A stretch of 64,000 bases of DNA from the human T2T-CHM13v2.0 reference genome, Homo sapiens. Below, in pieces: positions 3,464-54,458 of this stretch (the first letter of the stretch is position 1; every line of letters begins with the position of its first letter). The DNA lies in assembly GCF_009914755.1 (NCBI RefSeq), contig NC_060947.1; one strand, 5' to 3'. Both the position numbers and the translations under genes were made by a program. The notes under the pieces are model-generated. The model worked only from the letters and a program-made list of their open reading frames with translations, was not told the origin of the DNA and ran no database searches.

Positions 3464-3899
3464 TCAATTATAAGTGATAGCAAAAAATCAATGCCCTAAT
3501 TTAATAATTACAGCTTGTTTTTGACCAAAAAATAGTATTACCCAGCTTGATTATTTACCGTATGCCATAGAAGTTGGCCCCAGATATTTTCCAGCTGTTT
3601 ATAAACACTAAATTCATTCTTAAACAATATATCCCAGTGAGGATACCCAAAATGAATCAGGGCCTCTGATAGCAATTCCCAAAGAAGAACCCCACAGATA
3701 TTTTGAAATAAGTGTGTAGCCTTCCAAAGAGAAAGTTATGAGGAAACTGCATTCTTTTGGATTGTTGTTTTAGACTGTGTGATTTAAAAGAAAAAAGCAG
3801 CCATAAAATTTATAAGGTTGCTTTATTATAAATATTTGAAACTGGCTGACTGTTGAAATTTTCTGACCTTGGCCAGCACAGCACAACTGCCACCATTTA

Positions 3900-4115
3900 G
3901 AGAGCACTTGAAACATCTCAGTGCTCTTTTAAGTGCTTTACGTGTTTTATCCTATTTAATCCTCACAGCAAGTCCATGAGGTGCAAATACCCCATTTTAT
4001 AGACGGAGAACCTGAGGCTGAGAGGGGTTGAGAAACTTATCCCACCTGTAAGTGACAGAAGTCAACTTCAAAGGCCATGTCTAACTGATCCCAAATGCCA
4101 TCCTCCTGACCACCA
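3900..4115 (-). mobile_element. MIR SINE
   Basis: tttaatcctcacagc...ccccattttatagacggagaacctgaggct matches the antisense MIR core. Confidence 0.7.
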
Positions 4116-4768
4116 TGACCAGAACCGAGATTTCTTAACCTGGGGACTGCAATTTCCTGGATGAGTTTTGGGGGACTGTGAACATCCTGAAACTGAACAC
4201 AAAAATGCTGTGTATTCACTTTCCCAAAGGCGGCCAGTGGCTTTCATCAGATTCCCAAAAGGGTGCCTGGCCCATATGAGATTAGGAACCACTGCAGCAA
4301 TAGAAAGGAGAATGTTGTCAATGATTTTATCTTGAAATTTCCACTGAAGTGTAATCTGATTGTGCAATGAAATTGTTGCATGCAGCTGCCAAAGCCGAGA
4401 GACGGAATGGGTGAGGACATCAACCACTCATTCATAAGGGTTGGGGCAGGGGCTCACTACACAGGTAGTTGTCACTGTGAGGCTGACAACTCACACTTCA
4501 CAGGACTAGCGCAAGAATTGTGTCTTGGCCCCAAGAGGTTCCTCTGTGGCTGCCCTTGCCATTCACCCACTTTCCAGCAAGCACAGATGTACAGGTATCA
4601 GGGAACATGGGGAAGAAACCCCAGGCTCCAGAAGCAATGGCACAGGCTCACCTTCCAAGCTCTGCTCATTTCGCTGGGACTCATTTCCCAGGGATCCCTC
4701 ACTCTGACCCATAGCCTTCCTGACCTGTTGTGTGAAACTCACTCCACAAACCCTGTACTTTCTGATAA

Positions 4769-33027: not shown

Positions 33028-33324
<297 letters not shown>

Positions 33325-34321
33325 TCACTGACTTTCATTTAACCATTACAGTGGAGTTGTATGGGGTTTTGGTAGCATGAATCATCTTTCCAAGATTTAT
33401 TCACCAGTGAATCTTGAGTACCCACCTCTTATGTCCTAGAGACAATACTAGTTGCTCAATATAAAGCAATGGGCACAGCTGAATCCTGTTCTCTTGCTCA
33501 TAGACTAACAGGAAGACAGATAAGCAGAGTTCTCCGCTACAAGAACTCTGAGGCAAGTACTCTATAAGTGATCAGTACACACAGCCTTGAGCGTAAAAAT
33601 GAGTGAATGTAGGCACAGTTCCCTAGAAGCACCAAGAAGGGCATGACTGAGGATACAATGAGCAATTTGGACCTTAATCAATGTGCAGGAGTTTGCCCGG
33701 TAGATGACATGGAAGTTGACGTTCTAGTGCTCAATGAGAAAGGCTTAGGGGCAGGGGGGTGGAAATGTGGCATTCAGGACACTGCACGCTGTTTGGTATT
33801 GCCAGGATAGAGAAATAGTAGAAGGGGCTGCAAATTGAAACTTGGGAATCATTAGCATGTAAGTTGGGAAATAGATATGATGGGCCATGGAACAGGTATA
33901 GAATGCAAGAAAAGAGGACCAAAGATAAACCTTTAGAAGGTCCAAGTACCTAAGGAGTGGGGAGAGGAAGATTATTCAGGGGAGACGGAGAAAGTACAAT
34001 CAGAGAGGTCAAGGAAATCTGGAAAAGAATGACAATGTGGAAGTCGGTTAAAAAAAAAAAGCATTTGAAAGACAACTTGTAAATCTTGTCTAATGCTGCT
34101 ATAGCCCAGTGGGATAAGAACTGCATTTGGCAATGAGATGGTGGTCCTTTTTAACTTAGCAAGAGCATTTTCATTCAGATGGGTGTAGGGGTCATACATC
34201 AGTAGATTCCTAAATGTATTTCATACCACTTGGATCATGTCACCACCCCCTCCAATATCCTGCGAGGCCTCCTCATTGCTCAAGAATAAACTCAGCCACC
34301 TTTTATACACCAATATGACCC

Positions 34322-34610
34322 TGTAAACCAAAAACTATTTGAGATAGGTCTCAATCAATTCACAAGTTTATTTTGCCAAGGTTAAGAACATGCCCAGAAG
34401 AAAAGAACACAGAATTTATAGAAACAGTCTGTGGTTTGTGCCTTTCTCCAAAAATAATTTTGAGGGCTTCAACATTTATAGGAGAAAAGTGAGCTGGAGA
34501 GGATAGTGGGAGGGCATGGTAATTCACACATTGCAAGAGAAAGGGGGAAGGTAAGGAAATATTCAGTTATGTATTCATCTCATGCTCAGTAAATCTATTT
34601 TCCTTTCACA
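34322..34610 (-). mobile_element. MER4-family LTR fragment
   Basis: tgtaaaccaaaa...gagataggtctcaatcaatt...aagtttattttgccaaggttaag is the antisense MER4 LTR end. Confidence 0.7.
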
Positions 34611-34759
34611 ACCCCAACCTACTTTTCTAATTTGGTTTCTCTCTATTCTCTTTTGAAATAATTATAAAAATAACTACTATATATTTACTGCCTACTGTAT
34701 GTAAGATTCTGTGCTTGAAAACTTACTTATACTTTCTCATTTTTAAGCCTCACTCTAGT

Positions 34760-34953
34760 ACTGGCATCAGTAAACTATGGCCTGCTGGCCAGCCATTGTT
34801 TTTATAAATAAATTTTTATTGGCACACAGCCACATCCATTGGTTTGTGTATTGTCTATGGCTGTTTTCATGTCACAAGGGCAGAGCTGAGTAGTTGTAAC
34901 AGAGATCTGCAAAGCTTAAACTATTTACTATCTGGCCCTTTACAGAAAAGGAC
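34760..34953. mobile_element. MER58A-like element
   Basis: taaactatggcc...ttttataaataaatttttattggcacacagccac...tatttactatctggccctttacagaaaa. Confidence 0.75.
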
Positions 34954-35370
34954 TGTAGATCCAATCCCTACCCTAGTCAATGCTGGTGCGGGCCTGCCAA
35001 GACTTTATCCACCATCCCCTAGCTGCCTGAGTCACAGCTGATAAGGGCCTACAGCTGCTCCCTTCACTGCCTTTGGCTAAATGGGGGTTATGCTCCCCCA
35101 TACTCTGGGGCAGTCCACAGCCAAAGACTGCCTGATATAAAAGGCTAGCCCCCTTGTCTTGAGGTGTGGCCTAGTCTGTGGCTCAAGTTATGCTCCAGAG
35201 AGCTTCATGGGATAAGGCTGAGGCCAAGTTTCCAGTAAAGATCACATTCTTACTTACCTCCCTCCTTTGTCCCAGCCTGCTTCCCTCATTCCCCTCTGCC
35301 TCAGAGCTCTCCTCAATGAAGCACTTGTAAAACGATCTCCTTTTCAAGCTAGGGAATCCAACCTAAGGCT
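34954..35370 (+). mobile_element. LTR16-family (LTR16A1-like) ERVL LTR, antisense to ACE2
   Basis: gcagtccacagccaaagactg, tataaaa, and the 3' end ctcctcaatgaagcacttgta...ctagggaatccaacctaag resemble the LTR16 U3/R/U5. Confidence 0.75.
35258..35289 (-). CDS. ACE2: Alternative internal first coding exon of truncated ACE2 (dACE2 / MIRb-ACE2): MREAGWDKGG + AG|gtaagt
   Basis: ATG at 35289-35287; 32 coding nt; consensus donor GAG|gtaagt in phase 2, matching the phase-2 acceptor of coding exon 9; the peptide matches the dACE2 N-terminus as I recall it. Confidence 0.92.
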
Positions 35371-35374
35371 CTCA

Positions 35375-35520
35375 CAAGCCTGCAACCTGGGAATTACTAT
35401 TCTACTTTATAAAATAAGGAAACTGAAACCAAAGAAAGTTAAATACCTTGTCCAAGGTTGCATAGTCATTAAGTGACACACCTAGGATTCTGAAGCCTGT
35501 GCTCATTCTGCCACATTACA
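35375..35520 (-). mobile_element. MIR (MIRb-like) carrying the internal promoter
   Basis: tactttataaaataaggaaactgaaaccaaagaaagttaaataccttgtccaaggttgcatag aligns to the antisense MIR core cattttacagatgaggaaactgaggcacagagaggttaagtaacttgcccaaggtcacacag. Confidence 0.85.
35406..35430 (-). promoter_or_regulatory. TATA box (35406-35411) and ISRE (35418-35430) of the internal ACE2 promoter
   Basis: The - strand reads GGTTTCAGTTTCCT tattt TATAAA, about 120 nt upstream of the MREAG ATG. Confidence 0.8.
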
Positions 35521-36197
35521 CAAACTCTCCTTCACTTATTTCTCATTCTAGCCTAACTTGCCGACTTCAGTATGCAGGTCAGGTCCTGCCTCTCTGTATT
35601 TGATCCTGCTGTTCTCACAGCTTGGGTCCTCCTCCCGACTCTGTGTATCTGAATCCTTCTTGTCTTTCCAAACCTAATTCAAATCCCACTTGTAAAGCAC
35701 GGTCTGATCCTATCTCCTATTGCAAATGTGGTCAGTTTTCTTCCAGTTCTCCATAGAGCATGCCCTGTGTCTCTCTTACGACATGTACCACTTTCTCCCT
35801 TCGATCCAAGCGTATTTATTCACCTATTCTGTCTCATTCACAAGAGTGAAACATGGAGGGGAAGATCAATGTGTGATTCATATGTCCATCTTCCAAAAAT
35901 CTTAGCACCAAATCTTTCCTGATATGGGTGCAACCATCCCCATTACCATACAACGCCAATGGATGCATGATATTTCCAAGAAAGCAGATTGTCCACAGGT
36001 TCAAGTTAGAGCCTGCTGGCAATCCTCTTTTCCTGGGAAAACCCAAATGTGCTCTCCTGGACTCCCAGCCTTAGTTCAAGGAGAATTAACTTATCTTTTC
36101 TGTGCTCAGAAAAGCAGAGAAAGAATTCAAGTTAAACTTCAGCCTGCCTCTGTTGTCTCCCATTTAGTATCAGTTGTGTAAGTATCAGCCCCACTAC

Positions 36198-51953: not shown

Positions 51954-52409
<456 letters not shown>

Positions 52410-54458
52410 TCACAACCTCTCAGAAACTGCTTTTTCATTAATCTTCACAACAACCTTGTGAGGGAGTTGTTATTGTCTCAACTTTACAAATAAGGGAAAT
52501 GAGGCACACAGCAGGTAACTTTCCCTAGGTCACACAGCTAGAAATTAGAAGAACCAGGGCATCAACCTAGTGTTTACTTCCGAAGCTAATGCTCTGAACT
52601 ATTATCCTATAGGTTGTATTTGACACATTCTAGTCTTCTCTCTAACATGCAGGAGTGGGAAGAAGTGAGCTATGGGAAGAGGAGTTTGGTCTGCAGCACA
52701 AACTCATCTATGCAACCCACCTGACTCACTTCTCAATCCCTACCTGGCTTCACCCAATCCAGATGATTTACTGTGAAGCAAAATTTCTGGTAAAACTTTC
52801 ATACCAAATTATAGGAATAATTTTACTCTCTATCTATAGGAAATAACTCACTACCTCCCAAAGGCCTCAGTCTTAGAACATTGTTTATCATACTACATGT
52901 AGGAATTTTGAGGCTATCCAATTTTATTTTAGTTATCACTACCATACTACATGTGTTATAATTATATCACCAAAAAAAATCACTTTGTGTTGCCTTGCAT
53001 TTTGGCCCCTGAGGAGGTATTATTCCTTGCCAAGCTATTCTTTTAATATCATTTACAATTTATTCCGTATCCTTACCCTAGGGCTCCCAAGCCTAAATAA
53101 AACAGATAGCTTAGTAGTTATGCAAAGAATCAGTCAGTTCATGCATACCTATCAGATAATTTAGTGGTTGATAGCTATATTTAGACTGAATGATGAATGG
53201 AATGAAGCATATATAGCAGCTTACATAGCCCCAGGCTTGAAAGGAACCATTACAGATAAAATTGGTGGCATTCCACACTACCTCTGGGCAAAGGCAGGGG
53301 AGAAGCAACTAAAACTGCAACAGTTTCTGTAGCCATACAAGGGAGTTTTGGGAGTAAGGAACACGTTGTTTGAGATAATCACAAGAAATTAAAACAGTCT
53401 CTAAATCCCATCCGTAACTGCAATGGATAGCATATTCCCAACTTGAGAGAGATCCTTTGTAATTTCAAGGACTGTAGGCATAAAATCCTAGATTATATTT
53501 TAAAACATTCAAAAAGATACTCTGCTCTTTTTGGCCCTAACTATATGCATAAATTAAATACATGATTTATCAGGCCATAGGTCTGGTTGTCTTTACCCAA
53601 CTTGTGATAATTGTATTTAAACTATTAAAATCCTTTTGTAAGAAGTTGTTTGAGATTTAAAGTACTGACAACTTATTTTCTCTTTTTCTATAGCTCACTA
53701 TCACCTAAACCAGGCTATATACTTTTAGTAACCTCTAAACCATTTCTTCCCCTGTAGGTGTGAGAGTTCCATGAAGACAGAAAATGAAAAACTGAATGGA
53801 ATCTTTAGCATCTATCCAGTACCTTGGAGCCCAAATCTCCCAGGAAAACTTTCACCCTTGGCTCCCATATGCTGGCTCAATTTCCAGATAGAGCTGTCAA
53901 AACCGCATCAGGTTCAAAGACAAAAGCTGCCTTGGTTACTTTCTAAATATGCCCAGGTACTTGCATATTAAAAAAAAAAGTCTTCCATTTAACAAAATAG
54001 GTAATGTAAATTATAAGAATGTGAATTCCATAACTCAAGCTTAGGATTTAAGAAATTATTTTTTCTTTATTTTAGATTGGGGGTTTAATATTTTAACATT
54101 TAAAATTTTTAATCTGTATGAACATTTTTATTTTTTCCTAACTTTATCTCATGGGAAAAAAAGTGCTCGCCCCTGAATTTTATTTTATGTGCTGCACAGT
54201 GATCTTCCCCGACTTGTACCTGTGTGTAGGTGTTCATGTGTATTAAGGGGCATGGGACAGACTCATTAGAGACAGGGATGAAATTTCCTTGGGTATATAC
54301 AGAATAGCAGTTTAGAATTACCCTGGTCTGAGTTCACTGTGACTCTATCCCTGGAGACAGGAATAGGTTCAGAAATGGGGCATGCCCAAGACCCTAGGGA
54401 CCCTGGCAGCAGGGGGGCTGAAGAAGCTCTAGAGACCACGCAAAGAGTAAGTGTGGTA

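What the first reader, a model, noticed from the sequence alone, without database searches (positions are those of the whole stretch)
34954..35520. Promoter and exon assembled from two unrelated adjacent retroelements, with MIR point mutations creating the ISRE and TATA
The exon, ATG and donor lie antisense within an LTR16-type LTR, while the promoter lies in the abutting MIR. Relative to the MIR core as I recall it (ttttacagatgaggaaactgaggc), this copy reads ctttataaaataaggaaactgaaacc. The change gagg->gaaa completes GAAANNGAAA, and tacagat->tataaaat makes a TATA on the ACE2 strand. Other MIRs in the window act as internal controls and lack the ISRE: about 3995 ggagaacctgagg, about 52495 ggaaatgagg, about 60800 ggaaaccaac. 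Inference: a few substitutions turned a MIR half-site into an IFN-responsive promoter, probably in a lineage-restricted way.
Basis: partly seen in the sequence, partly recalled or inferred. Interest (0 to 1): 0.8.

Follow-up and report, generated by a model that had tools for sequence, protein, structure and literature searches.

The report
Known interferon-inducible dACE2 promoter and exon
This is the already published interferon-switched start site inside the human ACE2 gene, built from two ancient jumping-gene remnants, which makes a shortened ACE2 protein that cannot act as the coronavirus receptor.

Summary

Checked here:
- Exon 35258-35397 (minus strand) has one ATG (35289), giving MREAGWDKGG plus 2 nt, in phase with exon 33066-33292. 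The donor is GAG|GTAAGT.
- An empirical MIR profile built from other genomic copies matches 35357-35503 (E 1.2e-20).
- Against that consensus, two G>A changes (35427, 35428) turn GGAAACTGAGGC into the ISRE GGAAACTGAAAC. Changes at 35409-35413 make the palindrome TTTATAAA.

Added here:
- The two elements are nested. A 5' piece of the same MIR lies at 34669-34753, and CTCAC flanks the roughly 617-bp insert on both sides.
- None of 23 other copies of the LTR family has GT at the donor.
- 49 of 1778 strictly matched MIR cores genome-wide carry the same ISRE.
- TATAAA starts only 14 nt upstream of RefSeq's exon start, but 32 nt upstream of Blume's approximate start.

Not tested: cross-species conservation, factor binding, and reporter activity.

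The parts
34669..34753 (+). 5' piece of the MIR SINE (profile positions 2-84). It is separated from the promoter piece by the insert.
   Evidence: E 3.7e-5 in a 2.5-kb search and 9.6e-4 in the whole window. Same strand as the 3' piece, and collinear with it.
34749..34753 (+). CTCAC, left copy of the putative 5-bp target-site duplication
   Evidence: These are MIR profile positions 80-84, which are present in both MIR pieces.
34797..34949 (.). High-copy interspersed repeat lying between the MIR 5' piece and the LTR. No tool here names its family.
   Evidence: 3071 first-look candidates, of which 40 were scored at 75-82% identity.
34969..35370 (+). Solo LTR, called LTR16A1 in print. It carries most of the exon, the ATG and the donor on its probable antisense strand. 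The left boundary is approximate.
   Evidence: Dispersed copies. Right end placed by copies L002 and L004. Orientation inferred. The name and the 396-bp length come from the Ng preprint.
35256..35260 (-). Splice donor GAG|GT (exon ends at 35258; GT is at 35257-35256)
   Evidence: In 23 other family copies the +1+2 bases are CT 14, CC 6, AT 1, CA 1, GC 1, and none is GT.
35287..35289 (-). Start codon of dACE2. It is the only ATG in the exon and lies 32 nt before the donor.
   Evidence: Other copies at this site: GTG 9, ATG 5, other 8, of 22 without gaps.
35258..35397 (-). Alternative first exon (Ex1c / exon 9a), 140 nt, as annotated by RefSeq
   Evidence: Hub annotation.
35371..35503 (+). 3' piece of the MIR SINE. 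It holds the TSS, TATA, ISRE and second IRF-like motif, and begins with the right copy of CTCAC (35371-35375).
   Evidence: profile positions 68-216, E 1.2e-20. The profile was built without this copy. Also.
35406..35413 (.). TTTATAAA palindrome. It reads TATAAA on the ACE2 strand at 35411-35406.
   Evidence: It differs from the MIR profile consensus at 35409, 35410, 35411 and 35413. Blume places a TATA box 148 nt upstream of the splice site.
35417..35430 (+). ISRE, AGGAAACTGAAACC. It coincides with a RefSeq nucleotide_motif.
   Evidence: G>A at 35427 and 35428 relative to the MIR consensus. Blume describes a near-consensus ISGF-3 site here.
35431..35442 (+). Second A-rich, IRF-like motif, AAAGAAAGTTAA. 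It coincides with a RefSeq nucleotide_motif.
   Evidence: It differs from the MIR consensus at 35431, 35433, 35434, 35435 and 35437.
33066..33292 (-). ACE2 exon 10, the acceptor exon joined to the new first exon
   Evidence: 1070 nt of upstream coding sequence leaves 2 nt over (1070 mod 3 = 2), which matches the 2 nt left after the 10 codons. Blume's intron coordinates map to 33293-35257.

Best explanation
This is the intronic, interferon-inducible alternative promoter and first exon of human ACE2. It produces the truncated isoform called dACE2, MIRb-ACE2 or short ACE2.

Shown here:
- An old MIR SINE on the + strand, antisense to ACE2, was split by insertion of an LTR element. The 5-bp sequence CTCAC flanks the insert on both sides.
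- The MIR half that now adjoins the LTR carries the ISRE, the TATA-like palindrome and the start site.
- The LTR carries the rest of the 5'UTR, the ATG and a near-consensus donor that splices in frame to exon 10.

Inferred from comparison with other copies:
- Two G>A changes in the MIR core made the ISRE.
- About four substitutions made the TATA.
- A G at donor position +1 is unique to this LTR copy, where 21 of 23 others have C.

Taken from print, not tested here:
- Interferon signalling through JAK/STAT, presumably ISGF3 or IRFs acting on the ISRE, recruits Pol II and drives the transcript.
- The product lacks the first 356 residues and neither binds spike nor acts as a carboxypeptidase.
For: Sequence anatomy and reading phase.

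MIR identity, using a profile built without this copy: (E 1.2e-20).

Consensus comparison.

Split MIR and CTCAC duplication.

LTR family copies and their states at the donor and ATG.

Genome-wide counts of strictly matched MIR cores: 1339 ancestral (GG), 390 with one of the two changes (obtained by subtraction), and 49 with both, out of 1778. The change is therefore recurrent and plausible.

Print:
- Ng preprint, abstract and sections 5 and 19.
- Onabajo preprint, passages.
- Blume preprint, passages naming the TATA, ISGF-3 site, ATG and donor.
- Lee et al. PMC8172581, passages on DHS, H3K4me3, IFN-beta-induced Pol II and JAK-inhibitor sensitivity at ex1c.
- PMC9987828, passages on dACE2 induction in humanised mice.
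- RefSeq lists both motifs, a -100 regulatory region and a -800 promoter at these coordinates (hub annotation).
Against: TATAAA begins 14 nt upstream of RefSeq's exon start at 35397, which is too close for a canonical TATA-directed start. It fits only Blume's approximate 5' end (about 35379, 32 nt away) or the CA at 35382/35381 (30 nt away).

GAAANNGAAA is not rare in this window: 17 found against 5.8 expected.

The 5' MIR piece is a modest match (E 9.6e-4 window-wide).

The left end of the LTR is hidden by another repeat, so the left copy of CTCAC does not directly adjoin recognisable LTR sequence.

Whether the substitutions arose after insertion, and in which lineage, was not tested.

No binding or reporter data were seen by me. 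The two published Nat Genet papers are not held.
Confidence: 0.93

Rival explanations
1. The MIR-derived ISRE is not the main interferon switch. On this reading, induction depends mostly on other elements of the intron-9 promoter/enhancer, and the TATA-like palindrome is incidental.
For: GAS-like sites at 35974 and 36030. Blume lists AP-1 and NF-kB sites upstream. Lee et al. report preferential STAT5 binding at the intronic promoter/enhancer in K562 cells. PMC9987828 speaks of four ISREs. TATAAA starts only 14 nt from RefSeq's exon start.
Against: The MIR site is the only perfect ISRE core within 800 bp. It lies about 20-30 nt upstream of the annotated start. RefSeq marks it as a motif inside a 100-bp regulatory region (hub annotation). 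Blume calls it a near-consensus ISGF-3 site.
Confidence: 0.15
2. The MIR pieces at 34669-34753 and 35371-35503 are two independent MIR insertions. The LTR then merely landed between them, and the shared CTCAC is coincidence.
For: MIR fragments are dense, with 17 matches in 64 kb. The 5' piece is weak (E 9.6e-4 window-wide). The left copy of CTCAC adjoins a different repeat, not recognisable LTR sequence.
Against: The two pieces are on the same strand. Their profile coordinates are complementary (2-84 and, after trimming, 80-216). Their overlap is exactly the 5 bases duplicated at both edges of the insert. Five bases is the duplication length I recall as typical for ERVL-class elements.
Confidence: 0.1
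3. The ISRE and TATA bases were already present in the MIR source copy that inserted here, as a subfamily variant, and are not later point mutations.
For: Some copies picked for likeness to this one share parts of the pattern: L011 has the full ISRE, and L007, L008 and L009 have AAAATAAG. Observed double changes (49) exceed a rough independence estimate of about 28, which I worked by hand.
Against: The consensus of 40 copies has GAGGC. None of the copies that were not picked for likeness has the full ISRE core. Genome-wide, the ancestral form outnumbers the derived form 1339 to 49, with 390 one-step intermediates, as expected from scattered decay.
Confidence: 0.07

Closest known systems
dACE2 / MIRb-ACE2 / short ACE2 (Onabajo et al. 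2020; Ng et al. 2020; Blume et al. 2020/2021)
   Same: It is the same locus and the same object. Shared features: the 140-nt exon in intron 9, the peptide MREAGWDKGG, splicing to exon 10, the TATA box, the ISGF-3 site, and the MIRb plus LTR16A1 origin.
   Different: Nothing differs in kind. The following details were not seen in the texts I could read:
- base-by-base derivation of the ISRE and TATA from the MIR core
- the split-MIR anatomy with the CTCAC duplication
- the donor G that is unique among 24 family copies
- the genome-wide count of MIR cores carrying the same ISRE
The published Nat Genet versions and all supplements were not seen and may contain some of these.
Transposon-derived interferon-inducible regulatory elements and isoforms, for example LTR12C at GBP2/GBP5 and the Alu-derived exon of IFNAR2-S, as listed in review PMC13709765
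   Same: A transposon remnant supplies interferon-responsive regulation or a new exon for an immune-related gene (passages).
   Different: As far as my data show, the ISRE here is not part of the element's consensus. It arose through decay of a SINE core. The functional unit also spans two nested elements of different classes.

Membership tests
dACE2 / MIRb-ACE2 alternative first exon of ACE2 | Exon in the intron upstream of exon 10 that encodes MREAGWDKGG and is in frame with exon 10 | tested here: met
   ATG at 35289, 32 nt to the donor, and 1070 nt of upstream coding sequence leaving 2 nt over (1070 mod 3 = 2).
dACE2 / MIRb-ACE2 alternative first exon of ACE2 | Transcription induced by interferons | not testable with these tools
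   Print only: passages and the abstract.
MIR SINE | Significant match to a MIR profile, including the conserved core | tested here: met
   profile positions 68-216, E 1.2e-20. The profile was built from other copies of the same genome.
MIR SINE | Assignment to subfamily MIRb | not testable with these tools
   No Dfam or RepeatMasker library is held. The name comes from reviews.
LTR16A1 (ERVL-class solo LTR) | Dispersed, diverged copies elsewhere in the genome that cover the exon part | tested here: met
   4 places at 68-80% identity.: 39 other places using a family copy as the query.: 17 other places, which include the ACE2 copy.
LTR16A1 (ERVL-class solo LTR) | Match to the LTR16A1 consensus | not testable with these tools
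   Print only: the Ng preprint reports 285 of 396 bases identical to the Repbase consensus.
LTR16A1 (ERVL-class solo LTR) | Short target-site duplication flanking the insertion (5 bp for this class, recalled) | tested here: inconclusive
   CTCAC is at 34749-34753 and 35371-35375. The left copy adjoins another repeat, not recognisable LTR sequence.
ISRE | Tandem GAAA half-sites spaced by 2 nt, GGAAANNGAAAC | tested here: met
   AGGAAACTGAAACC at 35417-35430.
ISRE | Binding of ISGF3 or IRF factors, and dependence of induction on the site | not testable with these tools
   No ChIP or mutagenesis result for this site appeared in the texts I read.
TATA-box core promoter | TATAAA on the transcribed strand | tested here: met
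   35411-35406 on the minus strand.
TATA-box core promoter | Start site about 25-35 nt downstream of the TATA box | tested here: inconclusive
   The distance is 14 nt to RefSeq's exon start (35397), 32 nt to Blume's approximate start (35379, converted), and 30 nt to the A of CA at 35381.

The most novel reading that the evidence does not exclude
The dACE2 unit was assembled stepwise. First, an LTR element integrated inside a MIR, leaving the CTCAC duplication. Then at least five separate point changes in the two remnants produced the ISRE (two G>A), the TATA, the donor (a G at +1 that no other copy has) and perhaps the ATG.

More broadly, the MIR core is two transitions away from a perfect ISRE. 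The hundreds of thousands of MIR copies would then form a standing reservoir of near-ISREs. At least 49 are already complete and 390 are one step away among strictly matched cores. New interferon-inducible promoters could arise from this reservoir elsewhere.
Probability: 0.3. Interest if true: 0.4.

Novelty: already known. Interest (0 to 1): 0.2.

Why it matters
The feature explains why ACE2 once appeared to be an interferon-stimulated gene. [quoted passage not shown] That point is settled in print.

The small additions here show in base-level detail how decay of ordinary repeats can build a regulated promoter and a coding exon. They are the nested anatomy, the derived donor, and the count of MIR cores carrying the same ISRE. 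They also give a concrete list of other MIR-derived ISREs that could be checked against interferon ChIP data.

Tried and rejected
1. LTR orientation from a possible provirus. Two family copies lie 7.6 kb apart on contig C3 and were fetched. Their ends are only 68% alike over 162 bases. None of 19 stop-free stretches matched any Pfam family at E <= 0.01. This gave no provirus and therefore no orientation.

2. Classifying RefSeq's second mobile element (35584-35691). A genome search with 35520-35760 found only the query itself. The MIR profile does not match there. The upstream stretch 35504-35800 shows no convincing likeness to the family-copy loci L002-L005 (one 39-base match to L005, E 0.027).

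4. The published Nat Genet papers could not be read by PubMed id or PMC id.

5. Literature searches for a stated link between the MIR core and the ISRE:
- 'mammalian-wide interspersed repeat' + ISRE gave 0 papers.
- MIRb + ISRE gave 82 papers, and the 15 listed were mostly about microRNAs or unrelated topics.
- MIR + SINE + ISGF3 + transposable elements + STAT2 gave 2 unrelated papers.
These searches do not cover subscription papers.

6. Cross-species alignment was not possible, because no other mammalian genome is held.

Full report
**What is there**

On the ACE2 (minus) strand the stretch reads, in order:
- an A/T-rich block with GGTTTCAGTTTCC
- TTATTTTATAAAG
- the RefSeq alternative exon 35397-35258
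- GTAAGTAAG

The exon has a single ATG, at 35289. From that ATG to the donor there are 32 nt, which is ten codons (MREAGWDKGG) plus two bases. The coding exons upstream of exon 33066-33292 sum to 1070 nt, which also leaves two bases over. The new exon therefore joins exon 10 in frame. The donor is GAG|GTAAGT, and the acceptor of exon 10 is a normal polypyrimidine-AG.

GAAACTGAAA lies at 35419-35428. That bare motif is frequent in this A-rich window, with 17 found against 5.8 expected. It is nevertheless the only perfect ISRE core in the 800 bp upstream of the exon. It coincides with one of the two RefSeq nucleotide motifs: 35417-35430 is AGGAAACTGAAACC and 35431-35442 is AAAGAAAGTTAA.

**It is a published object**

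- Passages of the Onabajo preprint (PMC7386494) describe a 140-bp first exon, Ex1c, in intron 9. [quoted passage not shown]
- The Ng preprint (10.1101/2020.07.24.219139; abstract, sections 5 and 19) describes the same transcript as starting in an intronic LTR16A1. That element is 396 bp long, with 285 bases identical to the Repbase consensus. It is said to predate the mammalian radiation and to be truncated in mouse. Its exonisation is said to create MREAGWDKGG.
- Two reviews say that MIRb and LTR16A1 together form the interferon-responsive promoter and first exon (PMC13709765; PMC7618056).
- Lee et al. (PMC8172581, passages) report DNase hypersensitivity, H3K4me3, IFN-beta-induced Pol II loading and JAK-inhibitor sensitivity at ex1c.
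- PMC9987828 (passages) reports induction of dACE2 in humanised mice.

The final Nat Genet papers are not held. I saw no supplements.

The window's genome is held, so I built a MIR profile from the genome itself.
- An iterated nhmmer search over the window, earlier loci and 200 kb of flanks (292 kb in all) collected 40 core copies.
- A second, full-length profile was built without the ACE2 copy and without the five copies that had been picked for likeness to it. It matches 35357-35503 on the + strand at profile positions 68-216, with E 1.2e-20.

Against this consensus:
- The copy has G>A at 35427 and 35428, which turns GAGGC into GAAAC and completes the ISRE.
- It differs at 35409, 35410, 35411 and 35413, which yields TTTATAAA.
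- It has five differences within the second motif.
- Over the promoter piece, 79 of 126 aligned columns are identical. G>A is the commonest change, at 10 of 47.

Two of the three internal controls are good MIR copies, at 3885-4161 and 52398-52648. The third is a weak fragment cut inside the core. One of the 17 MIR matches in the window has GAAANNGAAA, and it is this one.

**How unusual is the ISRE-bearing core?**

I ran exact pattern counts in the whole genome. Each pattern required the 12-base core, then 18-30 bases, then CAAGGT.

| Core state | Count | Reverse-read control | Call |
|---|---|---|---|
| Ancestral, GG | 1339 | 0 | 31 |
| Both changes, AA | 49 | 3 | 32 |
| All four purine combinations | 1778 | 5 | 33 |
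| One change only | 390 | not applicable | by subtraction |

So 2.8% of strictly matched cores carry the same ISRE. The change is a recurrent product of decay and not a singular event. The exact 14-mer of the ACE2 site occurs 181 times, against 57 for the reverse-read control.

**Anatomy: nested, not merely adjacent**

The same profile also matches 34669-34753 on the + strand, at profile positions 2-84 (E 3.7e-5 in a 2.5-kb search; 9.6e-4 window-wide). Copies of the LTR family (L002, L004) place the LTR end at about 35370.

The five bases CTCAC, which are profile positions 80-84, occur at 34749-34753 at the end of the 5' MIR piece. They occur again at 35371-35375 at the start of the 3' piece. 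This is what a 5-bp target-site duplication would look like. The 5-bp length for this class of LTR element is recalled and not tested here.

Between the 5' MIR piece and the LTR lies a different, high-copy repeat at 34797-34949 (3071 first-look candidates, 40 scored at 75-82% identity). It hides the LTR's left end, so the duplication is suggestive and not proven.

**The LTR part**

- The stretch 34970-35373 has four weak dispersed matches.
- A family copy used as the query finds 39 further places out of 76 first-look candidates.
- Another family copy finds 17 other places, including the ACE2 copy.

I compared 23 other copies pairwise with the exon.
- At the donor +1+2 positions they read CT 14, CC 6, AT 1, CA 1 and GC 1. 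None has GT, and 21 of 23 have C where the ACE2 copy has the donor G.
- At the ATG, the 22 copies without gaps read GTG 9, ATG 5 and other 8.

The donor is therefore specific to this copy. The ATG is not.

For orientation, 7 of the 20 copies that cover the site carry TTTATT at the position aligned to about 35320. That is AATAAA on the + strand. Many copies also keep a TATA-like ATAAAAGG on the + strand near 35140. It remains an inference. A direct test through a possible provirus failed.

**A point against a simple TATA story**

TATAAA on the ACE2 strand starts at 35411, only 14 nt upstream of RefSeq's exon start at 35397. Blume's approximate exon start, converted to window coordinates, is 35379, which is 32 nt downstream. 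A CA dinucleotide lies at 35382/35381. CAGE data, which I cannot see, would settle which start is used.

**Mechanism**

Shown here:
- the sequence elements and their spacing
- their repeat origin
- the reading frame

Inferred:
- the order of events, namely the MIR first, then LTR insertion, then point changes
- the LTR's orientation

From print only:
- interferon and JAK/STAT dependence
- promoter chromatin
- the non-functional, unstable protein

Not tested by anyone I could read:
- reverting the two ISRE bases
- factor binding at the site

**Verdict**

The increments are modest: base-level derivation from an empirical MIR consensus, the nested anatomy with CTCAC, the copy-specific donor, and the 49 of 1778 count. 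They may already be covered in the published versions or supplements that I could not read.

Noticed in passing
window 34797-34949: A high-copy interspersed repeat sits between the 5' MIR piece and the LTR (3071 first-look candidates genome-wide; 40 scored at 75-82% identity). No tool here names its family.
   Followed up: partly
window 35584-35691: RefSeq lists a second mobile_genetic_element here. A genome search with 35520-35760 found only the query itself. Neither the MIR profile nor the LTR copies match it.
   Followed up: partly
window, whole: GAAANNGAAA occurs 17 times against 5.8 expected from shuffles. The window holds 17 MIR matches at E <= 1e-3.
   Followed up: no
window 35974 and 36030: GAS-like sites, TTCCAAGAA and TTCCTGGGAA, lie in the -800 promoter region.
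   Followed up: no
L065 (G000:C3:33142300-33150500): Two copies of the LTR family lie 7.6 kb apart in the same orientation. Their ends are 68% alike over 162 bases. No Pfam family matched any of the 19 stop-free stretches between them.
   Followed up: yes
G000, 48 places listed: Other MIR cores carry the same full ISRE core (GGAAACTGAAAC followed by CAAGGT), for example L011 (G000:C2:162380488-162380528). Whether any of them is bound or induced by interferon is unknown.
   Followed up: no
window 35315-35320: The dACE2 5'UTR reads TTCATT here. Seven of 20 other LTR copies read TTTATT at the same site, which is AATAAA on the opposite strand. This is probably the LTR's decayed polyadenylation signal.
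   Followed up: partly
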